From: Chiloscyllium plagiosum
Taxonomy: Eukaryota
NCBI RefSeq assembly: GCF_004010195.1
Contig: NC_057752.1
Coordinates: 9,002,766 to 9,066,765 of the forward strand
DNA: 64,000 nucleotides
Direction of reading: 5' to 3'
Shown here: one piece after another, positions 1,517 to 61,138 of the stretch
Layout of the letters: every line of letters starts with the position of its first letter
Numbering within the stretch: position 1 is the stretch's first letter
The notes under the pieces: model-generated
What the model saw: only the letters and a program-made list of their open reading frames with translations
Told to the model about the DNA's origin: nothing
Databases searched by the model: none
Translations under genes and position numbers: made by a program

Positions 1517-2080
1517 AGGTTATAGGTGTCACTGGCAATATCAACATTTGTTGCTCATCCTTCAGTGCCTTTGAACTGAGTGACTTGCTAGGCTATTTCA
1601 GAGGGCAGAGCTGAAAATGTGTTGCTGGAAAAGCGCAGCAGGTCAGGCAGCATCCAGGGAACAGGAGAATCGACGTTTCGGGCATAAGAAGGGCTTATGC
1701 CCGAAACGTCGATTCTCCTGTTCCCTGGATGCTGCCTGACCTGCTGCGCTTTTCCAGCAACACATTTTCAGCTCTGATCTCCAGCATCTGCAGACCTCAC
1801 TTTCTCCTATTTCAGAGGGCAGCTAAAAGTCAACCCACATTGTCAGGATCTGGAGTCACATGTAGACCACAGCAGTTAAGGATGGCAGATTTCCTTCCCA
1901 GACATTAGCAAACCAGACAGGCTTTTACAACAACAATTACATGGCCACCATTAGAACAGATGTTACAAAATTCAAATTTCAACCACATGCCATGGTGGGA
2001 TTCAACCCATGTCCCCAGAACATTAGCCTTAGGATCTGGATTACTACTCCAGTGACACTGCCATTATGCCACTAACCCCA
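1517..2080 (-). mobile_element. tRNA-derived SINE (probable Meta-domain family), interrupted by a PLE palindrome
   Basis: Reverse complement of the family at 4965-5260; sequence continues across the 1609-1806 insert. Confidence 0.75.
1609..1806. mobile_element. Fold-back Neptune-type Penelope terminal element (83-bp perfect inverted repeat)
   Basis: Arms 1606-1688 and 1694-1776; 16-bp TSD ctatttcagagggcag (1593-1608, 1807-1822). Confidence 0.85.
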
Positions 2081-14504: not shown

Positions 14505-15390
14505 CTGTTCAAGGTTTTTGTAAAGATTTGTAGCTCGGGTGCCGGTTGTAGTTGTTGTGGGTGTGTTCACCGAGCTGGGAAGTTGGTTTGCAGACATTTC
14601 ATCCTCTTTCTAGGTAACATCCTCAGTGCTGTTGAGCCTCCTGTACTGTGTAGGTTGGAATTTATTTGATTTCATTCCTACTGCTTTCAGTTGCTCATTG
14701 CAGTGGTCAGTATATTGGGTTGAGGTCAATGTGTTTATTGATGGAGTCCGTGGATGTGTGCCAAGTTTCTAAGAATTCTCTGGCTATCCTCTGTTTGGCT
14801 TGTCCTATTATTGCTGTGTTGTCCCAGTCAAATTTGTGGTCCTTGTCATCTATGAGTATAGATACTAAAGATAGCTGATCATGGTGTTTATGATGTTCAT
14901 GAATGCGGATCACTAGTTGTCTGCCTGTTTGTCCTATGTAGTATTTTGTGCAGTCTCTGCATGGAATCTTGTACACTATGTTTGTCCCACATATGATGGG
15001 TTTTGGGTCTTTTGTTCTGGTGAGTTGGCTGAGTGTGACTGTTAGTATACGTGCTGTCATAAATCCGAATGGTTGGAGGATTCTGGCTGTCAGTTCCGAG
15101 TTTTTTTTATATATAAGGGAGCACGGTTGGTGTGTTGGGTTGTGGCATGTCCTTGTCACGTTGTTTGTCTGCCAAGCATCTGCAGATGAAGTTGAGGGGA
15201 TATCGGCTCTTGGCGAAGCCCTTGTAACGGTATTCTTCCTCTCTTCACCAGTCAGGAGTGCTGCAGTGTGTTGCAGCCCTTTTGACCGGGTCCTAATGCA
15301 GCTTCTCTCGTGTGTGTTTGGGTGGTTGCTGTTATAATTCAGGATCTGGTCCGTGTGTGGCTTTTCTGTACACTTTTGTACATTCCCCAT
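14505..15390 (-). mobile_element. Poseidon-type Penelope element 3' part (RT thumb + GIY-YIG endonuclease)
   Basis: THTDQILNYNSNHP, NIVYKIPCRDCTKYYIGQTGR, REFLETWH; hammerhead-like core at ~14590-14630. Confidence 0.9.
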
Positions 15391-15784
15391 TCTGTGTTCT
15401 TTCTACCATAATATCCAGCAATTTGTTGTGCCATCCTCACAGATCCATGGCAGCTCTTCTGCAACCACTCTGAAATGTCAGTCATCCAACTATGCCGAAG
15501 TCCACCTCTCTTTCTGCCCTCTGCATTACTGTTTAGAAGAGATCTCTATAGCTTTGCAGCTTTGATAAATGGTTAAAGTATTGGCACTTTAGTTTCTAGA
15601 TGTCATACTTTTTCTCTTGCCATGTCAAGCGCCTTGTCTTTTGTCTTATGATCTTTGTGCGGAATTTGAAGTATACAATTTGGCAGGTACTTTACAAAAG
15701 CTTCTATTTTCTTCCACAGATTGTTTCCCAGATTTCTAAGGTATACAGAATGTAGCATCTTATGAGCTTTCTTTTCCACCTCAG

Positions 15785-16640: not shown

Positions 16641-17690
16641 CTTATACAGATGTACAGCACAGAAAAAGACTCTTTGGTCCAACTCGCCTATGCTGACCAG
16701 ATATCCTCAATTAATCTAGTCCCATTTGCCAGCATTTTGCCCATATCTCTCTCAACCCTTCCTGCTCATGTATCCAACAGATGACATTTAAATATTGTAA
16801 TTGTACAAGGCTCCTCCAATTTCTGTGGCAGCTAATTCCATACACACACCACCTTCTGTGGCAGCTAATGTCTCTTTTAAATCTTTCCCCTCTCACCTTA
16901 AACCTATGCCCTCTAGTTTTGGACTCCTCAACTCCGGGAAAAGACCTTGTCTATTTACCCTATCCATGTCCCTTATAATTTTATAAACCTCTGTAAGGTT
17001 ACCCTCAGCCTCTGATGCTCCAGGGAAAATAGCCCCACCCTATTCAGTCTCTCCCTTTAGCTTAATCCCTGCAATCCCAGCAACATCCTTATAAATCTTT
17101 TCTGTACTTTTTCAAGTTTAATAACATCTTTCCTATAGCAGGGAGACCAGAATTGAACGCAGTATTCCAAAAGTGTCCTAACCAATGTCCTGTACAGCTG
17201 CAACATGACATCCCAACTCCGATAGTCGAGAGTGTGGTGCTGGAAAAGCACAGCATGTCAGGCAGCATCCGAGGACCAGGAGAATCAACTTGTCGGGCAG
17301 ACACCCTTCATCAGGAAGTGCTTCTCCCACACTCTCGACTCTGATCTCCAGCATCTGCAGTACTCACTTTCTCCGAGTTGATCCCAACTCCAATACTTAA
17401 TGCACTAACCAATAAAGGCAAGTGTACCAAATATCACCTTCATTATCCTATCTACCTGTGACCCTACCTTCAGGGTACTAGGAACCTGCATAGCAAGGTC
17501 TCTTTGTTTGGCAACATTCCCCAGGACCCTACCATTAAGTGTATAAGTCCTGCCCCTGATTTGACATAGGAAATGCAACACTTTACATTTATCTAAATTA
17601 AATTCCTTCTGCCACTCCTCATCCCTTTGGCCCATTTGTTCATCTGATCAAGGTCCCATTGTACTCCGAGGTAACCTTCTTCGCTTATTA
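16641..17690 (-). mobile_element. CR1 LINE 3' fragment interrupted by a PLE terminal element
   Basis: Same RT C-terminal motifs, split at 17225-17380. Confidence 0.9.
17225..17380. mobile_element. Fold-back Neptune-type PLE terminal element
   Basis: Family sequence with partial inverted arms; TSD atcccaactcc(g/a)ata 17210-17224, 17381-17395. Confidence 0.8.
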
Positions 17691-19166: not shown

Positions 19167-21396
19167 GAACATAGAACAGTACAGCACAGAACAGGCCCTT
19201 CAGCCCACGATGTTGTGCCGACCATTGATCCTCATGTATGCACCCTCAAATTTCTGTGACCATATGCATGTGCAGCAGTCTCTTAAATGTCCCCAATGAC
19301 CTTGCTTCCACAACTGCTGCTGGCAACGCATTTCATGCTCTCTCAACTCTCTGTGTAAAGAACCCGCCTCTGACATCCCCTCTATACTTTCCTCCAACCA
19401 GCTTAAAACTACGATCCCTCGTGTTAGCCATTTCTGCCCTGGGAAATAGTCTCTGGCTATCGACTCTATCTATGCCTCTCATTATCTTGTATAACTCAAT
19501 TAGGTCCCCCCCTCCTCCTTTTCTCCACTGAAAAAAGTCTGAGCTCAGTCAATCTCCCTTCATAAGATAAGCCAGTCCAGGCAGCATCCTGGTAAACCTC
19601 CTCTGAACCCTCTCCAAAGCATCCACATCTTTCCTATAATAGGGCGACCAGAACTGGACGCAGTATTCCAAGTGCGGTCTAACCAAAGTTTTATAGAGCT
19701 GCAACAAGATCTCACGACTCTTAAACTCAATCCCCCTGTTAATGAAAGCCAAAACACCACATGCTTTCTTAACAACCCTGTCCACTTGGGTGGCCATTTT
19801 AAGGGATCTATGTACCTGCACACCAAGATCCCTCTGTTCCTCCACACTACCAAGAATCCTATCCTTAATCCTGTACCCAGCTTTCAAATTCGACCTTCCA
19901 AAATGCATCACCTCACATTTATCCAGGTTGAACTCCATCTGCCACCTCTCAGCCCACCTCTGCATCCTGCCAATGTCCCGCTGCAGCCTACAACAGCCCT
20001 CTATACTGTCAACAACACCTCCAACCTTTGTGTCATCTGCAAACTTGCTGACCCATCCTTCAATCCCCTCATCCAAACCATTAATAAAAATTACAAAAAT
20101 TAGAAGCCCAAGGACAGAGCCCGGTGGAACACCACTCACCACAGACTTCCAGGCAAAATATTTTCCTTCTACTACCACTCGCTGTCTTCTGTTGGCCAGC
20201 CAATTCTGTATCCAGACAGCTAAGTTCCCCTGTATCCCATTCCTCCTGACCTTCTGAATAAGCCTACCATGGGGAACCTTATNNNNNNNNNNNNNNNNNN
20301 NNNNNNNNNNNNNNNNNNNNNNNNNNNNNNNNNNNNNNNNNNNNNNNNNNNNNNNNNNNNNNNNNNNNNNNNNNNNNNNNNNNNNNNNNNNNNNNNNNNN
20401 NNNNNNNNNNNNNNNNNNNNNNNNNNNNNNNNNNNNATCTGGTCCGGGCCTGGCGACTTGTCATTCTTAATGTTTGACAAAATTTTCAGCACATCAGCTT
20501 CCTCTATCTCTATCCATTCCAGAATGCACACCTGCTCTTCAAAGGTTTCATTCACTACAAAGTTTGTTTCTTTCGTAAAGACAGAAGCAAAAAACTCATT
20601 TAGGGCTCCCCCTACCTCCTCAGACTCCACACACAAGTTCGCTATGCTATCCCTGATCGGCCCTACTCTTTCTTTGACCATTCTCTTATCCCTCACATAA
20701 GTGTAAAATGCCTTTGTGTTCTCCCTAATCCATTCTGCCAAGCCTTTCTTGTGCCCCCTCCTGGCTCTCCTCAGACCTTTTTTGAGCTCAATCCTCGCCT
20801 GCCTGTAATTCTCTAGATCTGAGCTTTACCCTAGCTACCTCCACCTTATGTAAGCTACCTTCTTCCTTTTGACGAGAAGCTCCACTGCTCTCGTCATCCA
20901 AGGTTCCTTTACCTTATCCCTTCTTGCCTGTCTCAGAGGGACATATTTATTCATCACTCGCAACAACTGTTCCTTAAACAGTGTCCACATGTCTATAATG
21001 CCTTTACCATGAAACAATTGCTCCCAGTCCATGCTTCCTAACTCATGTCTAATCGCATCATAGTTTCCTCTTCCCCAATTTAAATATCCTCCCATTTTGC
21101 CTAATCCTCTCCTCCTCCATAGCTATGTAGAATGTGAGGCAGTTGTGGTCACTATCACCAAAATGCTCTCCCACCACAAGATCTGATACCTGCCCCGGCT
21201 CGTTTCCGAGCACCAAACCTAGAATGGCCTCTCCCCTCATCGGCCTGTCAACGTACTGAGTTAGGAAACCCTCCTGAACACACCTTACAAAAACAGCTCC
21301 ATTCAAATCTTCTGCTCAAAGGAGGTTCCAATCAATATTGGGAAAGTTAAAGTCACCCATTACAACAACCCTACTACGTCCACATTTTTCCAAAAT
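19167..21396 (-). mobile_element. Relatively young CR1 LINE (EN/RT) nested in the Penelope element; contains an assembly gap
   Basis: Long clean ORF pieces (209 aa with KFADDTK); catagaa-type tail; possible TSD taatta 19161-66 / 21397-402. Confidence 0.95.
20283..20436. other. Assembly gap (154 N)
   Basis: Run of N. Confidence 1.
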
Positions 21397-21972
21397 TAAT
21401 TATCATGGTAGCCCAAAAATCTACCACCAAACTAAAACAAATATTAATGAATTTAAAGGATCCTGTACCCACAGCCAGCAGAACGAACCTAATATACAAA
21501 ATACCCTGCAACAACTGCAACAAACATTATTTTGGACCGACGGGCAGGAAACTAGCCACCAGAATACATGACCGATTCTCATTGGTATCCATACACATAG
21601 ATGAAGAGGGACACCAGTTCGACTGGGACAATGCATCCACCCTGGGACAGGCTAAACAAAGACACATGCAGGAATTCCTCAAGGCATGTTATTCAAACTG
21701 CAACTCCATTAACAAACATGTTAATTTGGACCCCATTTACCAACTTCTCAGAAACCAAACTGGAAATGATATCACCCACCACAACAAACCACGACATTTA
21801 AGTAGCAAGTGGTACAGAACATCAACGCTTCACCGGAGACTCACTGATGATACTACCTAGCATGGTGATGAAACACCTAAAAACAAACACACCAGCTCAG
21901 CGAGCAAACCTACTTGAGCTACAAATCTTCTCCAAAATCTCAAACACCTATCTAATATTTTATTGTTTGTAG

Positions 21973-22159
21973 GTATTTCTTTCCACGGCAGCTGTTAATA
22001 AGACACTTCTGGAACCTCGAACAGCAGAAGGAGTTCATGGAAATCTACCACTCCATACGGGCTGAGGCTTACCCAAATGCTGTGAAGAATTTGATCAAAG
22101 CAGTGTCAAGATTTCCAGACAAAAGACTGAAAAACCAACTATTGCAACTTGGCACTAAA
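21973..22159 (+). CDS. LETMD1: LETMD1 coding exon 5 (YFFPRQLLIRHFWNLEQQKEF...LQLGTK)
   Basis: tgtag acceptor, AAA|gtaggt donor; FPRQLLIRHFW as in human; phases consistent. Confidence 0.96.
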
Positions 22160-22277
22160 GTAGGTACACAAATATGTTGCATTAGGGAATGAATAATTCC
22201 CAAGTTTATTGCTTTGAAAAGTGCATTTGCTGAATGTTGTGCCACATTGATGCACGAACAAGCTATACTATGGAGTA

Positions 22278-23542
22278 AGGCTGTGAGCCGAGGGTGTGGA
22301 GAGATCAATGGGAGGGGGGTGTGGGGCTGGGGGGAAGGTAGCTGAGACTGCGATAGGTAGACGGACGTGGGGGTCAGAGAGGAGGCTGGAGTGGATAGGT
22401 GGGAAGGAAGATGGACAGGTAGGGCTGGTCGTGAGGGCGGTGCTGAGTTGGAAGATTGGAACTGGAATAAGGTGGGGGAGGGGGAATGAGGAAACTGGTG
22501 AAGTCCAAGTTGATGCAGTGGGGGTTGGATGGTCCCAAGGCATAAGATGAGGCATTCTTCCTCCAGGTGTCGGGTGGTTAGGGAGTGGTGATGGAGGAGG
22601 CCCAGGACCTGTATGTCCTTGGGGGAGTTGAAGTGTTCGGCCACGGTGTGGTGGGGTTGGTTGGTGCATGTGGTCTGGAGATGTTCTCTGAAGCACTGTC
22701 CGAGTAGGCGTCCTGTCTCCCCAACGTAGAGGAGGCCACATCAGGAGCAACGGATACAGTAAATGACGTGTGGAAGTGCAGGTAAAACCCTGATGGTTGT
22801 GGAAGGCTGTTTTGGGGGCTTGGATGGAGGTGTGGGTGCAGGTTTTGCAATTCCTGCAGTGGCGGGGGAAGGTGCTAGGAGGGGAGGGTGGGCTGTTAGG
22901 GCATGTGGACCTAACAAGGTAGTCATGGAGGGAATGGTCTTTACAGAAAGCGGATGGGGTGGGGAAGGAAATGTATCTCTGGTGGTGGGGTCTGTTTGTA
23001 GGTGGCAGAAATGGCGGAGAATGATGCCATGTATGTGGAGGTTGGTGGGCTGGAAGGTGAGGAACAAGGGGGTTCCATCCTTGTTTCAGTAGGAGGGGTG
23101 GGGTTCAAGGGTGGAGGTGCGGGACATGGATGAGATGCTTTGGAAGGAATCATCAACCACGTGGGAGGGGAAATTGCGGTCTTCTGCCTCCGGACCCTCC
23201 AACCCCATGTGGATTACATCAGTTTCCTCATTTCCCCTCACCCCACCTTATCCCAGTTCCAACCTTCCAATTCGACACCGCCCTCGCGGCCAGCGGTGTC
23301 ACGTATCCAACACCTACCTGTCCATCTTCCTTCCCACCTATCCACTCCACCCTCCTCTCCGACCTATCACCATTACCCCCACCTCCATCTCTCCACCCCC
23401 TCGGCTCTCAGCCTCATTCCTGATGAAGGGCTTTTGCCCGAAACGTGATTCTTCTGCTCCTCAGATGCTGCCTGACCGGTTGTGCTTTTCCAGCACCACA
23501 ATCTCGACTCTGATCTCCAGCATCAGCAGTCCACACTTTCAT
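22278..23542. mobile_element. Neptune-type Penelope element with internal inversion (GIY-YIG part on -, 3' terminus on +)
   Basis: VIYCIRCS..GLLYVGET motif on -; inversion junction ~23180; 15-bp TSD ctatactatggagta 22263-77 / 23543-57; terminus matches the short palindromic family. Confidence 0.9.
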
Positions 23543-23807
23543 CTATACTATGGAGTAGCAAGGTGCAGGTTGTGACTGATTATCTGAATGTTGTCTTTCC
23601 AAGAAGGTGAGGAAGAAAAAGTGAACAAATAAACCTCGGCTTTTACAAAGCTCCTAGCAACCATTAGTGTGCTAGGTAGAAGCCACAAGACAACTCACTT
23701 ACCTAACATCTTAATTAACAGAACTATAAGACCTAAAGTAAAAGGGGAAAGAGAATGGATACGAGTGTGCCATGATGACAGGTTGAGGGTTATTTTGTAA
23801 GTTGGGA

Positions 23808-33672: not shown

Positions 33673-33999
33673 ATTATTTTGTGTTCTTTTTGACTTGTTT
33701 CGTAATACCAGCACTGGTTGTGCTGTTTATTGACCAGTGCACTAGGCCGAAAGGCTGTTATATCTTGAGTGAATTAGATTTTCCAATATAATATTTACCA
33801 CATCCAAAAGTGATAGAGCTTCCAGTTCCCTCTGAATGTCAACAATGGACTGTAGTGCCTAGAATGTGCCTCTCAGACAGATAATCAGACAAGACAGACA
33901 GTGAACTAAAGGAGATATTAGGAAGGGTTGACTAAAAAGATGGGTTTTAAAAGGGGGAGAGAGAGAAATTTCAAGGTTTGAAGAAGTGTAGTGAATAAG

Positions 34000-36180
34000 G
34001 TTAGCATGGTTTTGTGAAAGGGAAATCCTAACCAATTTATTGGAATTCTTTGAAGGAGTAACACACTATGGATAAAGGGGAGCATATTGATGTACTATAT
34101 TTGGGTTTCCAGAAGACATTTGGCAAGGAGCCAGATAAAAATTCATTCTATTAAGTAGAGGCTCATAGTATTAAGAAAGGGGGGGGGAAGCTGTGTGTAA
34201 TTGGCTGGCTGGCAAAAAGCATATATCGATCTCTCTCAGATTGGTAACGTGTCAAATGGGATCTCAAGTATTTGTGCTGCTGCTCAACCTTTTACAATTT
34301 ATACCAGTAACTTAGATGAGGGGGTCAAAGGCATCAGATGATGCAAAGATAGGTACAAAAGCATGTTGTGAAGATGACATAATCTCTATCCTCTGCATCC
34401 TTACTGAGTGAGCAAAATTCTGGTAGATGGAGTATAATATGAGGAAATGTGAAGTTGAGCGTCATTTCCTAGCTGAAAATGTTGCTGGAAAAGCGCAGCA
34501 GGTCAGGCAGCATCCAAGGAACAGGAGAATCGACGTTTCGGGCATAAGCCCTTCTTCAGAGTTCCTCTTAGCCACATTGTGTCTAAGCAAAACAGTCCCA
34601 ACTTCTTCAATCTGTCTTCAAGTGAAATTTTTCATCCCTGGAACCATTCTTAAATGGCTGCTGCATTCTCCTGTTCCTTGGATGCTGCCTGACCTGCTGC
34701 GCTTTTCCAGCAACACATTTTCAACTCTGATCTCCAGCATCTGCAGTCCTCACTTTCTCCTCGTCATTACCTAGCGCCAATCTCCTGCTTTTTCCTCATA
34801 CCCTTGCACCCTATTTCTATCCAAATAATTATCTAATACTTTGTTGAATGCCTCAACTGAACCTGCCTCCACTGCACTTCCTGATAGTACGTTGCATTCC
34901 ATACTTTAACTAGTCACTGTGAAAAAGCTTTTCCTTACCATGCATTTGCTGCTTTTGCAAATCACTTTAAATCTGTTCCCTCTGAATCTTAATCCTTGTA
35001 CAAGCAGGAACAGTTTCTCCCTATCTACTCAATCCAGACTCAAAATTTTGACAACCTCTATCAGAGTTCCTCTTAGCCACATTGTGTCTAAGCAAAACAG
35101 TCCCAACTTCTTCAATCTGTCTTCAAGTGAAATTTTTCAACCCTGGAACCATTCTTAAATGGTTGCTGCACTCTCTCCAATGCCGCCTTCAGATGTAGCA
35201 ACCATGACAGGACACAGTACTCCAGCTGAGGTTAACATCACCTCTTTGCTGATGTACTCATGTACTTGTATTAATAAAGCCAAGGATACTTTATGGTTTA
35301 TTAATTGCTCTCAACCTGTCCTGCCATCTTCAATATGTCCAGGTCTGTCTGGACCTGCAACCCCTTTAGAGGTGTACTCCCTATTCTAATTGTCTTTCAA
35401 TGTTCTTCCTACCAAACATCATTTGCAACCACTTTGCTGTTTTATTTAAAGTACAGTATTACTTAAACAGAGAATGACTATCGAATTCCAAGATACCAAG
35501 GGATCTAGGTGCTCGAGTGCATCAGTCACAAAAGATTGGTACACAGGTACAATACAATCAGGAAAGCTAATAAGATGCTAGCCTTTATTACAAGAGGAAT
35601 TCAACATAAAACTAATAGTCCTCCTCTTCAGTTACATAGTATTCAAGATATAGTCTCACCCGTGTCCTAAGTGAAGTTCTGGTCTCCTTAAGGAATTATG
35701 TAAATCTGTTTGATATGGTTTAGAGGAGATTTACTAAACTGGTACCTGAAATGAGTGGGTTGTCTGATGAGGAAACAGTGGACAGGCTGGGCTTATTTTC
35801 ACTTGAGTTCAGAAGAGCAGAAGGTGGAGTAGTTTATAATATACTGAACAGTTCTTGAGAAGGTGTCTGTGGAAAGAACATTTACTCTTTTGGGTGATTC
35901 CAAAACTATGGGACGTTGTTTTAAAATTAGGGATCACCCTTTTATTGATGAGGTGAGGGGAAATTTCCTCTGAGGGTTCTATGACTTTGGAATACTTTGC
36001 CTCTGGGAGGCAAGGTTATGAATATTCTTAAAGTGGAGACTGATTCCCTTGCCAGACAAGAATCTAAGGTTATCAGGGATAGATGGGAATGTGGAATTCA
36101 GAGCACGTCCAGACCAGTCATAACCTCATTGAATGGCAGAACAGGCTTGAAGAACCAAATGCCTTACCTCTGCTAATTTG
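34000..36180. mobile_element. Cluster of old CR1 fragments (+ 34000-34455, - 34780-35430, + 35440-36180)
   Basis: Degenerate RT and 3' tail motifs. Confidence 0.75.
34474..34761. mobile_element. Fold-back Neptune-type PLE terminal element with a captured 110-bp insert
   Basis: Family arms; TSD cgtcatt(t/a)cctagc 34460-73 / 34762-75; centre duplicates 35061-35170. Confidence 0.88.
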
Positions 36181-36249: not shown

Positions 36250-38455
36250 CACAAGGGACTGATGTCAGAGGAGCATGCAAAATAAAAAGGATAAGACTTT
36301 CCCCTTACCCACTCATTTCATACTTTTGTTGGTAGAAGCCCTTTTTGTGCTCCTCTTGCTCAATGTGGAAGCTCAGGGACATGGCTGACGTCCCTGACTC
36401 CTTCACGTATAGGAAGTGTGTCCAGCTGCAGCTCTTGTTAAACCGCATGACAGCTCTGGAGCTGCAGATGGACTCACTTTGGACAATCCGCGATGTTGAA
36501 GTGGTTGTGGATAGCACGTTTAATGAATCGGTCACACTGCAGATTAGGTTTGCTGAGGGAGAAAGGGAATGGGTGACTAAGAGGCAGAGAAAGAGCATAA
36601 AGGCAGTGCAGGTGTCCCCTGCGGTCATCTCCCTCCAAAACAGGTACCGTTTTGGACACTTGTTGGGGGAGATGGCTCACCAGGCAGTAGCCAGGTTCAT
36701 GACAGGGGCGTGCAAATGATTGAATAGGGGATTCAATTGTAAGGGGAGTAGATAGGTGGTTCTGTGGTCAAAAACGAGGATCCCGCATGGTATGTTGCCT
36801 CACAGGTGCACGGGTCAGGGATGTCTCAGATCGGCTGCAGAACATTCTGAAGGGGGAGGGTGAACAGCCAGTTGTCGTGGTGCACTTTGGCACCAATGAT
36901 ATAGGTGAAAAATGGGATAAGATCTGACAAGCAGAATTTAGGGAGTTAGGAGCCAAGTTAAAAAGTAGGACCTCAATGGTAGTAATCTCAGGATTGCTAC
37001 CAGTGCCATGTGCTAGTCAGTAGAAATGAAAGAATAGGCAGGATGAATGCATGGGTTGAAAGATGGTGCAGGAGGGAGGGGTTCAGATTTTTGGGACATT
37101 GGGACTGGTTCTGGGGGAGGTGTGGCTATTACAAATTGAAAGGTCTACACCTGGGCTGGACTGGAACCAATGTCCTTGGAGTGCTTTTGCTAATGCTGTT
37201 GGGGAAGGTTTAAACTAATGTGGCAAGGGGTCGCAAACCAAATGAGGAGGTTAGTGGACAGTCATAAGGTAGTAACTAAAGCCTGTAAGGAACTAGATGG
37301 CATGATGTCAGCCTGACTAAGGGAAAGAGTAGGCAGGGAGTAGGTAATGAATGCAAAGGGACAAGTGGTCTGAGGTGCATTTGTTTTAATGCAAGAAGTA
37401 TAGTAGGTAAGGCAGATAAACTTAGGGCTTGGATTAATACCTGGGAGTATGATGTTATTGTCATTACTGAGACTTGGTTGAGGCAAGGGTATGATTAGCA
37501 GCTAAATATCCCAGGATACACAGAGGAACCTCGATAATCCGAACGACACGGGCAGGGAGTATTTTGTTCAGATAATTGAATGCCGGATAACACAGTTTAC
37601 CCAAACATCGGGACCTTGCGATCTTGTCTGGATAATCTGAAATTCAGATAATTGAATGCCAGATAATAGAGGTGCCTCTCGATGCTTCAGGCAGGAGAGG
37701 GAGGTAAAAGGGGTTAGAGAAGATATCACAGCTGTGCTGAAGGAGGGAAGCATGGAGGACTCGAGCAGTGAGACAATATGGGCAGAGCTCAGAAATAGGA
37801 AGGTTGCAGTAACAACTTTGGGAATAGTGATCACAATTCCGTAAGTTTTAGAATACTTATGGACAAAGACGAGAGTAGTCCTAAAGGATGTGTGCTAAAT
37901 TGGTGGAAGGCCAACTATACCAAAATTCAGCAGGTGCTGGGGAATGTGGATTGGGAGCAGCTGTTTGAACATAAATCCACATTTGAAATGTGGGAGGCTT
38001 TTAAAAGCAGTTGATTAGAATGCAGGACAGACATGTCCCTGTGAAAATGAGGGATAGAAATGGTAAGATCAGGGAACCATGGATGACCAGTGAAATTGTG
38101 AGACTGGCTAAGAAGAAAAAGGAAGCATATGTAAAGGTCTAGGCAACTGAGAACAGACAAAGCTTTGGAACAATATCGGGAATGTAGGACCACTCTGAAA
38201 TGAGGAATTAAGAGGGCTTAAAGGGGTCATGGAATATCTTTGGGATTTTCTTTAACCGTTTCCTAAAGCCTTTTATTCATATATAAGGAGCAAGAGGGTA
38301 ACTAGAGAAAGGGTTGGCCCACTCAAGGACAAAGGAGGAAAGTTGTGGGGAGTCAAGAGAGAATGGGTGAGATTCTTAATGAGTACTTTGCATCGGTATT
38401 CACTGAGGAGAGGGAAGTGACGGATGTTAAAATTAGGGTAGACATTTGATTATTC
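36250..38455 (+). mobile_element. CR1 LINE 5' portion: ORF1 (Zn-finger/coiled coil + SGNH esterase) and APE endonuclease start, decayed
   Basis: CSSCSMW...CVQLQLL; GDSIVRG, VVVHFGTND, GLHL; FNARSIV, ITETWL. Confidence 0.9.
37521..37680. mobile_element. Tigger/pogo-like MITE inserted in the CR1 endonuclease
   Basis: Imperfect TIRs cagaggaacctcgataatccg / cagataatagaggtgcctctc; host PGY..CFR frame resumes after it. Confidence 0.7.
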
Positions 38456-38880
38456 AAAGTTTGTGAGAAGATTTGTAGCTCAGGTGTTCGTTGTTGTGGT
38501 TCTGTTCATCGAGCTGGGAATTCGTGTTGCAGACGTTTCGTCCCCAGTCGAGGTGACATCCTCAGTGCTTGGAAGCCTCCTGTGAAGCGCTTCTGTGATC
38601 TTTCCTCCAGCATTTATAGTGGTTTGAATCTGCCACTTCCGGTTGTCAGTTCCAGCTGTCCGCTGCAGTGGCCGGTATATTGGGTCCAGGTCGATGTGCT
38701 TATTGATTGAATCTGTGGATGAGTGCCATGCCTCTAGGAATTCCCTGGCTGTTCTCTGTTTGGCTTGTCCTATACTAGTAGTACAGGAGGCTCCCAAGCA
38801 CTGAGGATGTCACCTAGACAGGGGACGAAACATCTGCAACACAAATTCCCAGCTTGGCGAACAGAACCACAACAATGAAT
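38455..38880. mobile_element. Fold-back Poseidon-type Penelope terminal element
   Basis: - arm with IGQAKQRTAREFLEAWHS GIY-YIG tail; + arm 38783-38877; hammerhead cores in both arms. Confidence 0.88.
38529..38568 (-). ncRNA. Minimal type-I hammerhead ribozyme motif (PLE-borne)
   Basis: GCA-CTGAGGA-T-GTCACC(TCGACT)GGGGAC-GAAA-CGTC-TGC. Confidence 0.7.
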
Positions 38881-51416: not shown

Positions 51417-52397
51417 TTACATCGTTACGGAGTTTGCTGCAGGGGCTTCCTCTGGGGACCTCTGACCTTCAGACTGGGAACACACATTCTCCACAGTCGG
51501 CTCAGGCGTACAAAGGTCACCATCAGGGGCCCTGGGGATGCCATTTTGAAGCTTTGAATGCAGCTGGAACTCCTGTTTAGTACTTTCAGTGTATACATTA
51601 GAACCAACATTTACTGAGGAATTACCATCTTCCATTGAGAGAAATTGTACATCACTGTATTTAGAGGTTCCTGTGTTTTCAGAAAAGTGCTCTGTGACAG
51701 ACACGTATGATGACAATGAGCAATTGGTAGCAGCAATTAAATTTTCGACAGCGTTTTCCTTACTGCAATTGGATTCTAATCCTGCATCCACATAATTCGC
51801 CTCCCTATCACTGCAGTTCACACCTACAGAACAGCTCTGGTCGATTTGATAATATAACACTGTGGGGTTGGTTAAATATGTCTGTTCCTCAGGTGTTGAG
51901 TTATCTTGAACAGTGCTAGCAGCAAAACACAACACAGGAGAAACAGGAGTCACTTCCGCTTGAATCACAACAGGCGTTGCTAGCCCTTCACAGGCTTCAT
52001 CAGGTCCAGCCACAGGATCTCCTAATATACAAACTTCAAGGCTGTCTACACTGGTATCCATGGTTACACTAGAACTGGTTAAATCATCCTCCTCTTCCTT
52101 TTTCCTGTCCATCTCCTCAGCAGACTGTAAGTGCATGACCGCAGTTTCATTCTCCAAATCATAATTTTCTGCAGTAAATTCCTGATAGTCTTGTACTTCT
52201 GTATGTCTATCATTGGAGCAATGGGAAATGGCAGGCAATGGCTGCTGATGATGGTCCTGCTGTTTGTTCTCCAGTTCCAGCTTCATGATAGTGTGCAAGT
52301 AATGAGTCCGTACGCGGATGGGGTTAAATTCAATCCGGCCAGCCGCATTAGCGCATCCATCTTTGGAGCACCCACAGGGAAAAGACATCCTGTCCAC
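51417..52397 (-). CDS. CSRNP2: CSRNP2 last coding exon ([10 protein letters not shown]...[22 protein letters not shown]...[14 protein letters not shown]...)
   Basis: aag acceptor; [14 protein letters not shown] and adjacency to LETMD1 (as in human) point to paralog 2; TAA stop. Confidence 0.95.
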
Positions 52398-53064
52398 CTT
52401 AAGGAGAAGAGATTGATATTAATAAAGTGAGGATAGTTACACTGAGGTAATATTACCAGACCAATAATTGGGAGGTCAGCACTAATGCACCAGAGACACA
52501 GGTTCAAATCCAGCTATGGAAGTTGAGGGAATTTAAATTTGATTAATTAATTAAAATTCTAAAATAAAATGTTGGTCTTATTGAATTTTAACTGTCCTCT
52601 AACAGCCTCACAAGCCATTCAGTTGTGACCTGCTGAAGGGCAATAAACATTGGCCTTGCCAGTAATGCTAACAGGTCATTAATGAATACATTAAAAAGTC
52701 TAAAGGGCAATATAGCGATATGTTAGAAACAAAATCAGAAATTGCTGGAGAAGCTCAGCAGGTTTGGTAGCATCTATGGAGAGAAAGCAGAGTTAACATT
52801 TCAGGTCGAGTGACTCTTCAGCCAATTCTGAAAAACACAGTCACTGGACCTGAAACATTAACTCTGATTTATTTTCAGATGCTGCCAGATGGGCTGAGCT
52901 TCTCCAGCAATTTCTGATTTTGTTTTGGATTTCCAGCATCCACAGTTCTGTTTTTTGTATAGTGACTTGCTATAACATTGGTATACCATCACCCTACAAG
53001 GCAACCTGTCTCAGTGTGTAGGACCAACTCCATAGTCTGCCACAACAAACTGTTATTCATTGAG

Positions 53065-57100: not shown

Positions 57101-57172
57101 AAAAACAACACTGAATTAGTCTCCTGAGGTTGTATAATAGTCACTTCTATTGGCCGTAGGCTTTGACCTTAC

Positions 57173-57469
57173 CTGGCATTTGATTCCCGCTTTGCTACAG
57201 GGGCACACTTCAGGATCACAGTAAAACCTACAGTCGCACCCGCATTCCTCCCTGGACGAGCGAATGGCTCGCAGCTCATGCTTTTCCTCGGTATCAATCC
57301 TGTTGACGCCTGATGCACGTAATAAAGCTCTTCGCCTTTTTGTGGGTAGTGGTTGTAAAAAGAAATAGTCATCTACCTCAATACTGTCCACATCAATGTC
57401 ATCGTCAGAAACGTCATCAATGGTGAGTACATTGGCTTCCTCCGACTCAACTGTACCGTTCTTTGTCAA
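57173..57469 (-). CDS. CSRNP2: CSRNP2 internal coding exon (LTKNGTVES...[20 protein letters not shown]...CGCDC...GIKCQ)
   Basis: cag acceptor, CAG|gtaagg donor; 297 nt, phase 0; Cys-rich CSRNP domain. Confidence 0.96.
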
Positions 57470-58867
57470 CTGTTGAGAAATATTTAGAATAATTTATGGT
57501 CAGGTATCTGTGGGACAAAGAACAAGACCAATAGTATATGTTCTGGTGCAATGTTTCCATCAGATTTCACTGCCAAATGCGTTCATACTACAAGCTATGT
57601 TGTCCTCAGATGTGAAAGCTCATCACAATAACTGCATTATGCAACTTTCTAGAGGAAAACTTAGACAATTTTGGAATAAGCCTCATCTCTGATAAAAACA
57701 GAAAAGAAACGGGTAGCGTCTGAGTCATCTCCAATAAAAGCATCATCATCAGTCTGCAGCTTACAGCCCAGGGGTCCAACAATTAATGTGCCGGTAAGAG
57801 AGGAGATTGATCAATGTCACCTCTAATCCCAAGGATATGCTCAGTTATAATACATGGTGCATGATAGACTCAAGGGCAAGTTACAAACATTAACAGTGCA
57901 TTTAGTTTCCAAGGGAGTCTGCAAGAAAAGATCCCTGGAAAATACTGGTTTTAATACAACCTGCCACAGTATTCTACAGTCTACAAGCAAACATCAGTAT
58001 TACAATCCATTCTTTCCATCGTACTTAATTTTATCAAAAACTATTTGCTGTTTACCATTTGGAATTAATTGATTTTTTTTTGCACCTTAAAACTGCTTTC
58101 TCCCAATGGAATGGAATCTATAAATCAAACGAAAGCTACTTTTGCTTTTAAAAAAAAAAATAGATAAAACAATTGCAGAGGAATAAAACAAAGAATTGTG
58201 ATGCTGGAAATCTGAAATACAAAAACAGAAATTGCTGGAGAAACTCTGGCAGCATCTGTGGAGAGAAAACAAATAATTTGGGGTGACTGGACTCGAAACA
58301 CTAATTCTGCTTTCCCTCCACACTTACTACTAGAACTGCTGAGTTTCTCCACTAATTTTTGTTTTGTGTGTTAATAGCCGAGAGGATCTGTCTTCGAGTC
58401 AGGGCGCTAATGGAAAATTTAGAATGTGCAGTCCAAGACCACCTCTCCAGACACATGTTTTGTGACTTATCAAAGGAGTGAGGGTTGAATTTATTACATT
58501 AAGTGGCACATAATAATTGATGCTAGAATTGATGTTAGCCTCAAAACGATCTCCTACCAACCCTAGCACACAGAGGCACTGTGGATCCCAGACTGTTAAC
58601 ACACATGCTCCATTTCACCATCCCATCTCCTTCCCCAGTTCAAAACTGATCCTGTTATCCTATTTCCACTGCCCCCCCCATTGGCATTTAGAGTTGGACA
58701 TAAAAGATCTCTTATTTTGAAGAAGAAAGAGAAGGGGATTTCCCCTGAGGCAATGGAGGAAAATGGATAAAGCTCGTGTCAAACACATGATTTGGTGATA
58801 TAGCATGTGGGAACCAAGATTTGGTAATCTGGAATGAGGATGAGGTTAAGATTTTAGACTCTTTAAA

Positions 58868-59146: not shown

Positions 59147-60059
59147 CTGCTCTTGGTGGAGAATACCCTATCAGACAAATTCTCAGCTATGCTTTCTTGT
59201 AGAAGGACTTCAAATTGTAATAATCATTTTAAAGTGAGACCCAAAGTGTTGAAATCGGAAAGAACATCAGAAAGTGAGATTGATGTATTACAATACGACA
59301 ATACACTAATGAGCTCAGCTCCTCCATTTATTACACAAAATGGTCTGAGAGATCATCACTATGTTCTATCTGCTGTAAGTGTAACATTATGTTCTGTACA
59401 CATAACACTACCATCAAAAGAACAATCAAGTCTACAAACAATTATGAAAAGGTGAGGCAAAATACGCAGTAAACTTGCCAAGTCCTCCCTGAAAAATATC
59501 CAAACATTTCCTGTTTGATGCTGGACTCTGTTTCAACATGCAGCCTCATTACATAAATGCATCAAAACAGTACTCAGTGTCCTAAAAGGAATTCAAATTT
59601 TGCTGGTGAAGTCAGACACGTGAACACCTGCATGAACTCCAGCATCATGCAATTACACCTCGCTCACTTTGAGATTGAAAGCAAGATCACTCATTTCCCT
59701 CACAGCGAAACTGTGTTTAGGTCAAGCAGCCCAAGAGAAAAAGGCCAAAATCCCATGGCAGATCTGGGAGTCAGATGTGTTGGAGGAAGTATTTTTGAGA
59801 GCTTGTAGTAATTCACCCAGAGATGAATCTCAGTGAAGTTACCTCCTGTAAAAGACCTGCAGATTGAAGCACTGAGGACACTAAACTGTAACAAGTAATT
59901 TTGTTGAGACACTTCAATCATGAGAATGACATAGAATTGCAACCTTCCAATGAAGCAAGTAGCCTTAACATTGTTTATCCGCCCTGTCCCCATATCAGTC
60001 CCCTTATCCACTTGGCACCATTCACAATTAGTTGAAGTAGAAACAATATCCAGTCTAAG

Positions 60060-60268
60060 AGGAGAAAGTGAGGACTGCAGATGCTGGAGATCAGAGCTGA
60101 AAATGTGTTGCTGGAAAAGCGCAGCAGGTCAGGCAGCATCCAAGGAGCAGGAGAATCGACGTTTCGAGCAAAATTCCTGAAGAAGGGCTCATGCCCGAAA
60201 CGTCGATTCTCCTGCTCCTTGGATGCTGCCTGACCTGCTGCGCTTTTCCAGCAACACATTTTCAGCTC
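60060..60268. mobile_element. Fold-back Neptune-type PLE terminal element
   Basis: Arms ~60093-60170 and ~60192-60269; opposite polarity to 1609-1806. Confidence 0.88.
60172..60209 (+). ncRNA. Minimal type-I hammerhead ribozyme motif (PLE-borne)
   Basis: CTGAAGA-A-GGGC(TCAT)GCCC-GAAA-CGTC at 60177-60204. Confidence 0.7.
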
Positions 60269-61138
60269 TACTTCAACTAACCACAGCCCTCCAAAATGCA
60301 ATCTATAGCTTCACAATTAATTTACTCCCACAAAGATACTAATAATTTAAATTCATCCTGTGTCAGCTAAGTCACTTGTGAGATATCGAAAAATCAACCT
60401 TCCAGTACAATGTCCCAGTGGCATTCTGCATTAGAAGGCTAGTTCTTTAGCCCAGTGTTGACTTGGGCTGTGACCCTTAATTAAGTTGACCTTGTTCCAT
60501 AAAAGTAGACTGGGATGATAGAACTTAAGGGCATTTGCATTCAACTTGAAAACAATGTCTTTAAAATTTATTCTTGGGATGTGGACTTCATCGTCAAGAC
60601 CAGCGTTTATCACCCATCCTCAAGACTGTGGTGACAAGCCATCTTCCAGATTTGTACATTGAAATTCCTTGCCGAGCCATTTTAAAGGAGCAGTTAAGAG
60701 TCAACCCAAGTGGTTCTGAAGTCACGTAAAGGCCAGACCAGGTTTGGACAAAATATTTTCTTCCCCAAAAAGGAGTTTCATGAATCATTTAGGCTATTAC
60801 AACAATCTGGTTTGTTTCATGTTCACCAATACCTTTTAAACCCAAATACTGTGGTGGGATTTGAACACCTGTCTCTACAGCTTGAGTCCAGGCTTCTGGA
60901 TTACTATCCAATAATATAACCTTTGAACATTAAATAATTAAACACAAAGGCTTCTTGCAGCCTGGAGTCACTCAGCTTCTGGACACTGCTTGCTGACTGT
61001 CTGGTTAAAAGAACCCTCTGGGTTCTGACAGCACAGTTACTCCAGTTGTACTTGAGAGCTTCATTCAAGTCACAAAGGGTAAGTTATTCAGAAGGAATCA
61101 CAACCAAACCACCAGCCTCAAACAGGTAAACCTTTTAC

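What the first reader, a model, noticed from the sequence alone, without database searches (positions are those of the whole stretch)
34556..34665. Palindrome centre replaced by a 110-bp templated copy of DNA 505 bp downstream
Seen: 34556-34665 matches 35061-35170 (an old CR1 relic) at 108/110 nt. It starts at a tcag microhomology with the hammerhead CTGA and sits between the two PLE arms, inside a 14-bp TSD. Inference: either template switching onto nearby DNA during PLE integration, or microhomology-mediated repair after hairpin breakage. This is a route for these elements to capture flanking sequence.
Basis: partly seen in the sequence, partly recalled or inferred. Interest (0 to 1): 0.7.

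Follow-up and report, generated by a model that had tools for sequence, protein, structure and literature searches.

The report
Local DNA patch in Penelope insertion
A small jumping-gene insertion has, at the seam between its two mirror-image halves, a 110-base copy of DNA from a few hundred bases away, most likely a one-off repair patch made as the element landed, of a kind already known from other retrotransposons.

Summary
34556-34665 matches 35061-35170 at 108 of 110 bases, in direct orientation. It lies between the head-to-head arms of a 288-base Penelope-like, hammerhead-bearing insertion flanked by a 14-base target duplication (13/14). The donor is the old CR1 relic that the element landed in, and the patch carries that relic's private deletions. 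Public contigs from two studies confirm the element's left edge. They suggest an empty site in one relative and an unduplicated donor in another. No listed contig spans the patch joints. Best reading (0.55): the two cDNA ends were being joined during integration; the left tip copied about 105 bases from the resected right flank, let go, and annealed to the right arm. Later palindrome breakage remains a serious rival (0.27). Nothing shows the captured DNA was ever re-mobilised, so 'route for capture' is unsupported. L1 and R2 make similar templated insertions. The scan's unchecked notes report similar local patches in other Penelope copies of this genome. One lead: the right arm starts 1-2 bases from the predicted ribozyme cut.

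The parts
34460..34473 (+). Left target-site duplication; its last 3 nt (34471-34473) also read as the end of the left arm, a possible priming microhomology
   Evidence: 13/14 with 34762-34775; arm overlap from alignment
34474..34559 (-). Inverted left PLE arm without tail; ends exactly at the hammerhead CTGA; has a private 2-nt deletion
   Evidence: 95-96% to copies at 1612-1770 and 60177-60264; present in contigs of X1 and X15 up to 34500
34532..34559 (-). Minimal hammerhead core (CUGAAGA, extra A, helix II, GAAA, CG, UC); the 5' strand of helix I is cut off by the patch
   Evidence: motif scan; helix II folds; features as in PMC4209133 passages; no Rfam hammerhead hit at E<=1
34556..34559 (+). 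Left joint: 4-nt exact microhomology TCAG shared by arm tip and donor 35061-35064
   Evidence: P(>=4) about 0.016 under a random-join null
34556..34665 (+). Templated patch, direct copy of 35061-35170 (105 nt unshared plus 4 and 1 nt shared with the arms)
   Evidence: 108/110
34665..34670 (+). Right joint: 1 nt exact, 5 of 6 imperfect microhomology with donor 35170-35175; the arm starts at +29/+30 from CTGA, and the predicted ribozyme cut is after +27
34665..34761 (+). 5'-truncated forward PLE arm, including a tail of about 32-35 nt (about 34727-34761) absent from the left arm
   Evidence: 97-98% to copies 1712-1808 and 60060-60156; alignment
34762..34775 (+). Right target-site duplication
34776..35400 (-). 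Old CR1-like relic (ORF2 end and 3' region) that holds both the insertion site and the donor; extent approximate
   Evidence: six-frame translation; alignment
35061..35170 (+). Donor (template) of the patch
   Evidence: a single-copy-depth contig in organism B matches it (X9 record 26)

Best explanation
A short Penelope-like insertion was made by reverse transcription primed on both nicked target strands: the bottom strand from the tail start site (right arm) and the top strand from the second start site (left arm). That leaves two cDNA 3' tips to be joined head to head. The left (top-strand) tip, ending in TCAG, annealed to bottom-strand DNA exposed by 5' resection of the right flank about 290 bp from the nick. 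It copied about 105 nt, let go, and re-annealed through a 5-of-6 match to the right arm's cDNA tip; fill-in and ligation sealed the element inside its target duplication. The result is a single-locus, dead-end duplication. Shown: anatomy, local donor, direct orientation, both microhomologies. Inferred: timing at integration, which tip primed, resection, and the polymerase (a host repair or replicative polymerase is likelier than Pol theta given tract length; the element's own RT is not excluded).
For: The patch sits exactly at the arm-arm seam with the TSD intact. Both other young copies in the window have their own distinct imperfect seams (1688-1694 with AAG microhomology; about 60174-60177), and one has an inverted 14-nt flank repeat. 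Family contigs show the right arm starting at many positions (34669-34737 in the joints listed; 15 of 1355 shown). An anole PLE protein cleaves and extends both target strands from two RT start sites that bound the tail (PMC11167929, parts 1-2 read). Direct-repeat templated insertions are attributed to one end priming on the other resected end (PMC7165422 passage). L1 inversion seams are end-joined, and templated genomic inserts occur (PMC11702581: three cases; 10.1101/2024.08.27.596794: 22 instances). Point ages agree: PLE arms plus TSD 2 substitutions in 211 sites (0.95%), patch versus donor 2 in 220 (0.91%).
Against: The age intervals are wide (0.1-3.4% and 0.1-3.2%) and cannot exclude a later event. 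The tract and distance are atypical for the known analogues: Pol theta inserts are 3-30 bp with tracts rarely over 10 bp, and L1 templates usually lie within 15 bp of the site. Better exact matches to the left tip (6 nt at 35192, 7 nt at 35631) were not used. Heterogeneous seams are also predicted by later palindrome revision. No listed contig spans the patch joints.
Confidence: 0.55

Rival explanations
1. Post-integration revision. The element first sat as a near-perfect palindrome of about 200 bp. It formed a hairpin or cruciform that broke at the centre or stalled a fork, and microhomology-mediated template switching (MMBIR/FoSTeS-like) copied the downstream DNA and removed about 30 nt of the right arm, leaving a stabilising spacer.
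For: Sister copies fold as 77-83 bp DNA stems with tiny loops (-118 and -108 kcal/mol), against -83.5 here. Cells stabilise palindromes by asymmetric central changes, and spacers stabilise them (review PMC8701086 passages). Germline microhomology-templated insertions are known, some at quasi-palindromes (PMC8421209 passages). The same orientation and microhomologies are predicted.
Against: The two sister copies with tighter palindromes persist unpatched in the window. Patch and element have the same point age. Inferred: integration already supplies the open ends that this model must create anew.
Confidence: 0.27
2. Reverse-transcriptase run-off and jump. The right-arm cDNA was made on an RNA whose 5' end was cut by the hammerhead (after +27). 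The element's RT ran off that end and jumped onto nearby top-sense DNA or a nascent transcript, copying leftwards to TCAG, where it met the left arm.
For: The right arm starts at +29/+30, 1-2 nt from the predicted cut. R2 junctions include 'snap-back' and 'extra template' classes (PMC11331408 passages), and R2 5' junction types track the ribozyme cut site (PMC3774820 passages). Two unchecked scan notes put local captures near the cut in other copies.
Against: The first base of the cut product is missing, and the primer would carry a mismatch next to its 3' end, whereas the left tip gives a perfect 4-nt 3' match. The other four young-subfamily arms and the second focal arm start elsewhere (about -5 to +13). 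For the anole PLE, cleavage was dispensable in vitro and no RNA-seq reads began at the cut. The coincidence was noticed post hoc (roughly 5% chance, my estimate). The follow-ups of both scan notes did not support the ribozyme link.
Confidence: 0.12
3. Assembly or library artefact: a chimeric read or mis-assembly at the hairpin pasted in the nearby sequence.
For: No listed contig spans either patch joint (32 of about 390,800 pieces and 15 of 1355 joints shown). Palindromes can trouble some sequencers (review passage).
Against: Two substitutions separate patch from donor. Both joints have microhomology. The element's left edge is present in X1 and in X15, a different study. Organism B has an unbroken 115-nt donor piece, while no such piece is listed for X1 or X15, whose listed pieces go down to 79-80 nt; a duplicated donor would break their contigs at the 79-nt identical run (weak, since the table is filtered).
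Confidence: 0.05
4. Subfamily feature: the patch belongs to a chimeric PLE-CR1 master element or comes from an active CR1 RNA, and the match 505 bp away is incidental.
For: CR1 sequence is abundant in the window, and chimeric retrocopies are known for LINEs.
Against: The patch is 98% like the neighbour, while the donor region is only 62-68% like other CR1 copies in the window; patch and donor share the relic's private 2-nt deletions. Depth over the patch is more than a thousand times below the arms in X1. The donor has single-copy depth in organism B.
Confidence: 0.01

Closest known systems
Inverted-pLTR plus tail insertion units of endonuclease-bearing Penelope-like elements (PMC3846280, PMC8557442, PMC11167929)
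   Same: 5'-truncated head-to-head arms, a 30-40 nt tail on one arm only, a TSD, a minimal hammerhead in the arm. Rotifer copies with unrelated sequence between solo pLTRs inside TSDs are reported (PMC3846280 passage).
   Different: Here the sequence at the seam has an identified donor 286-395 bp from the target and microhomology at both joints. My searches and the passages read gave no PLE case of a locally templated seam; subscription papers and supplements were not seen.
Templated insertions in L1 retrotransposition, including twin-primed inversions (10.1101/2024.08.27.596794; PMC11702581)
   Same: A genomic segment under 250 bp is duplicated into the insertion during integration; the inversion seam is end-joined with microhomology; the TSD is kept.
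   Different: L1 templates are typically within 15 bp of the site. L1 twin-primed arms are different parts of one RNA, while PLE arms are two copies of the same end. Which L1 joint carries the templated piece was not seen (supplementary figures not read).
Pol theta templated insertions (TINS) of the direct-repeat class (PMC7165422) and MMBIR templated insertions (PMC8421209)
   Same: Direct-orientation local copy, microhomology start, release and re-annealing, tolerance of a mismatch.
   Different: One uninterrupted tract of about 105 nt from about 290 bp away is far longer and farther than typical TINS (3-30 bp); it is closer to MMBIR/SDSA-like synthesis.
R2 5' junction 'snap-back' and 'extra template' classes (PMC11331408)
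   Same: The cDNA 3' end is extended on nearby DNA or a second template before joining.
   Different: R2 snap-back gives reverse-complement sequence at an element-target joint; here the copy is direct and lies at a cDNA-cDNA seam.

Membership tests
Penelope-like element insertion | Head-to-head pLTR arms, one with a 30-40 nt tail | tested here: met
   arms; tail of about 32-35 nt on the right arm only, same in copies A and B
Penelope-like element insertion | Target-site duplication | tested here: met
   13/14; the organism C contig stops at 34459 with 46 nt left over, as an empty site would (inferred)
Penelope-like element insertion | Minimal type I hammerhead in the pLTR | tested here: met
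   core motif 4 matches vs 0 in shuffles; helix II folds; features match PMC4209133. No Rfam hammerhead hit at E<=1; cleavage untested.
Penelope-like element insertion | Arm sequence linked to an RT plus GIY-YIG ORF | tested here: inconclusive
   The related arm at 23410-23544 is preceded by DNA 76% like 22372-22547, inside a frame whose first 100 aa score 0.93 to Atlas clusters, one named GIY-YIG and one with PF01541 on 15% of members. Pfam gave no hit at E<=0.1. No PLE RT was identified.
Locally templated insertion (TINS / MMB-TI) | Insert copies nearby sequence, donor retained | tested here: met
   108/110, donor intact; private deletions shared
Locally templated insertion (TINS / MMB-TI) | Microhomology at both switches | tested here: met
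   4 nt exact on the left; 1 exact, 5 of 6 imperfect on the right
Pol theta TINS in the strict sense | Short tract (3-30 bp) from very near the break | tested here: not met
   105 nt from 286-395 bp away, against PMC7165422
Pol theta TINS in the strict sense | Dependence on POLQ | not testable with these tools
   needs a cell assay
Retrotransposon transduction (mobilised captured flank) | Captured sequence present in unlinked copies, away from its donor | tested here: not met
   One copy, next to its donor; no depth excess over the patch beyond CR1 background. A full genome census was not possible (no genome held).

The most novel reading that the evidence does not exclude
The seam records hammerhead cleavage in vivo: cDNA made on a ribozyme-cut RNA ends at +28, and the Penelope RT itself jumps from that end onto nearby host DNA or nascent RNA. 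Locally templated seams would then be a recurrent, element-driven class of duplication clustered at the cut site, and the first genomic footprint of a role for PLE hammerheads in transposition.
Probability: 0.12. Interest if true: 0.65.

Novelty: new member of a known kind. Interest (0 to 1): 0.3.

Why it matters
How Penelope-like elements build their inverted repeats is still open: self-priming on an antisense template, or priming on both target strands followed by a join. A flank-templated patch at the seam, inside an intact TSD, is what an end-joining step between two free cDNA tips would leave, and a fold-back primed on itself gives no obvious opening for one. One case cannot settle this, because later palindrome breakage gives the same scar. 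With very many such mini-insertions in this genome, a census of seam patches by side, orientation, distance, age and position relative to the ribozyme cut would test the models directly. On its own the locus is a neutral scar in old repeat DNA.

Tried and rejected
The whole genome is not held, so no census. Pattern scans for other family copies: viral contigs 0 and 0, genome contigs 0, metagenome 0 then 48 hits; all 48 match only 19-26 nt of the arm and are chance. Rfam gave 4 weak miRNA-precursor matches to hairpins, none at this element, and no hammerhead. Polarising the two patch-donor differences failed: five CR1 paralogues split at both sites, so my first impression that the patch keeps the ancestral bases was dropped. 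Organism B's donor piece shows 3 differences over 115 nt, the same count as the window's donor, but the positions were not listed. Pfam and PDB searches did not recognise the GIY-YIG-like relics. Hammerhead folds were not better than shuffles (z -1.4 to 0.8). Contig laying used 4 of 21 listed runs and was swamped by high-copy arms, so patch-spanning joints could not be seen; absence of rows was treated as weak only. Other local fold-backs in the window (8 listed): the centres tested (38584-38782, 52790-52870) match element sequence, not nearby flank. Look-ups of earlier findings near this site and by this sequence returned nothing. The retrozyme preprint (passages), the L1 review PMC10760644 (passages) and PMC7615360 (passages) added nothing specific.

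Full report
Observation. The stretch 34556-34665 matches 35061-35170 at 108 of 110 bases, in direct orientation and 505 bp apart; the differences are 34635 T/35140 A and 34658 C/35163 T. Among the 15 pairs of at least 40 nt and 90% printed from 181 window self-hits, it is the only one that does not join PLE arms. It lies between two inverted arms (51 of 51 complementary) inside a duplication of 13/14 at 34460-34473 and 34762-34775.

Anatomy. In order: left TSD; inverted arm 34474-34559, whose first three bases beyond that overlap the TSD; patch; forward arm 34665-34761 with a tail of about 32-35 nt that the left arm lacks; right TSD. Two sister copies at 95-98% lie at 1606-1808 and 60060-60269. 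Each has a different imperfect centre: copy A is joined through AAG, and copy B has a long left arm and a right arm starting about +13. The arm carries a minimal hammerhead core (4 motif matches in the window, none in 100 shuffles) with the extra base, G-C first pair of helix II and palindromic CG described for PLE hammerheads (PMC4209133, passages). Rfam does not call it. A related older arm at 23410-23544 follows sequence 76% like a frame that the Atlas places near GIY-YIG clusters (0.93), but Pfam gave no hit. PLE membership therefore rests on architecture and ribozyme motif, with the protein link inconclusive. The architecture is the known PLE one (PMC8557442 passages; PMC3846280 passages). 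'Shark-like genome' is taken from earlier scan notes and my recall, not tested.

Donor. It is the C-terminal ORF2 part of an old CR1-like relic on the minus strand (label recalled from the peptide), the same relic whose 3' region holds the insertion site. Four other CR1 relics in the window are only 62-68% alike over this region. Patch and donor share private 2-nt deletions absent from them. The template was therefore this locus, 286-395 bp beyond the right TSD, and not an active CR1 RNA.

Joints. Left: TCAG is shared exactly, chance about 0.016 under a random-join null. Right: one exact base and 5 of 6 with one mismatch, chance about 0.005, chosen after the fact. The unshared patch is 105 nt. 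Longer exact matches to the left tip exist at 35192 (6 nt) and 35631 (7 nt) and were not used. The right arm starts at +29/+30 counted from the C of CTGA; the canonical hammerhead cut (position from established numbering) falls after +27.

Public data. Of 21 listed runs I laid four, all contigs, on 33700-35060. X1 and X15 (organism A, two studies; X1 may be the assembly's source) have contigs running from unique flank into the left arm up to 34500 with 0 and 2 differences, so the element is real. In organism C (X12) a contig matches up to 34459, the base before the TSD, with 46 nt left over, and another starts at 34779; this fits an empty site within one base of the expected 30-nt overlap (inferred; the joint row was not shown). 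Flank divergence to C is 31 of 970 sites, 3.2%, older than the element. In organism B (X9) a 709-nt contig at depth 9.9, equal to a flank contig, matches 34556-34670 with 3 differences and runs on unlike the element on both sides. It is the donor orthologue, unbroken, which implies that no near-identical second copy is present there. No such 115-nt piece is listed for X1 or X15, as expected if a 79-nt identical run breaks their contigs; this is weak, since only 32 of about 390,800 pieces were shown. No listed contig spans a patch joint. Depth over the patch in X1 is about 4-9 thousand, like other CR1 relic bins, against 9-14 million on the arms, so the patch is not an amplified subfamily trait. 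The 15 joints shown of 1355 have right arms starting from 34669 to 34737, and 418-448 contigs per run continue past 34559 with about 8 consensus letters and then unrelated sequence.

Age. Against the sister copies, arms plus TSD carry 2 substitutions in 211 sites (plus one 2-nt deletion); patch and donor carry 2 in 220 (0.95% and 0.91%; intervals 0.1-3.4% and 0.1-3.2%). The values are compatible with one event but do not prove it.

Mechanism. The anole PLE protein cleaves and extends both target strands and starts reverse transcription at two sites that bound the tail (PMC11167929, parts 1-2 of 4 read). That gives exactly a tailed arm, a tail-less arm and two cDNA tips to join. A top-strand tip priming on the bottom strand of a resected right end yields a direct copy of downstream DNA, the geometry assigned to direct-repeat templated insertions (PMC7165422 passages). 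I put this at 0.55. Tract length and distance argue against ordinary Pol theta and towards MMBIR/SDSA-like synthesis (PMC8421209 passages), or the RT itself. Later breakage or fork stalling at the palindrome gives the same scar (0.27): sister copies form long DNA stems, and central asymmetry stabilises palindromes (PMC8701086 passages). Run-off at a ribozyme-cut RNA end followed by an RT jump is the boldest reading (0.12). It rests on one post hoc coincidence and is weakened by the dispensability of cleavage in vitro. Artefact 0.05; subfamily 0.01.

Comparison and novelty. L1 makes templated insertions (22 instances, templates under 250 bp, typically within 15 bp; 10.1101/2024.08.27.596794 passages; three cases in PMC11702581 passages), and R2 has snap-back and extra-template joints (PMC11331408 passages; PMC3774820 passages). 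Rotifer PLEs hold unrelated sequence between pLTRs. Three literature searches gave no PLE seam with a mapped local donor. The library lacks most subscription papers, and I saw no supplements; the L1 supplementary figures on templated insertions and the anole PLE supplement may bear on this. The scan's unchecked notes describe an 85-nt local filler, a local switch onto a neighbouring PLE and an R2 piece at a seam elsewhere in this genome; they are leads that this is recurrent, not support.

Verdict. A real, single-locus templated insertion at the seam of an ordinary mini-PLE: a new member of a known kind. It is useful as one data point for how PLE inverted repeats are closed; it is not evidence of sequence capture and spread. 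Interest 0.3.

Noticed in passing
window 60028-60041 and 60267-60280: Sister copy B has no direct TSD; a 14-nt flank word is present in inverted orientation, 18 nt beyond the tail end. It reads like an inverted TSD from a roughly 32-nt flank inversion made at integration.
   Followed up: partly
window 1591-1823: Sister copy A: near-perfect 83-bp fold-back with a 5-nt loop, a TSD of about 15 nt, and both arms identical to each other including a private base; probably very young.
   Followed up: partly
window 38487-38879: Fold-back of a second hammerhead-bearing family: 97-nt arms and a 199-nt centre that is element sequence (85% to 14699-14808), not flank.
   Followed up: partly
window 51417-52418 and 57116-57493, minus strand: Exons of a CSRNP-family gene (Pfam PF16019); the finding lies about 17 kb beyond the last of these frames.
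   Followed up: no
window 14707-15402, 21351-21860, 22069-22740: Decayed frames with GIY-YIG-like motifs (read by eye; no Pfam hit, Atlas lead for the last).
   Followed up: partly
window 17216-17379: Older-subfamily mini-PLE inside a CR1 relic, with a long left arm, a heavily truncated right arm and a TSD of about 14 nt.
   Followed up: no
window 20283-20436: 154-nt run of N inside a CR1 ORF2 relic (assembly gap).
   Followed up: no
window 36414-36479: 21-nt inverted repeat with a 24-nt loop in a CR1-like 5' region; weak chance match to mir-219, below gathering score.
   Followed up: no
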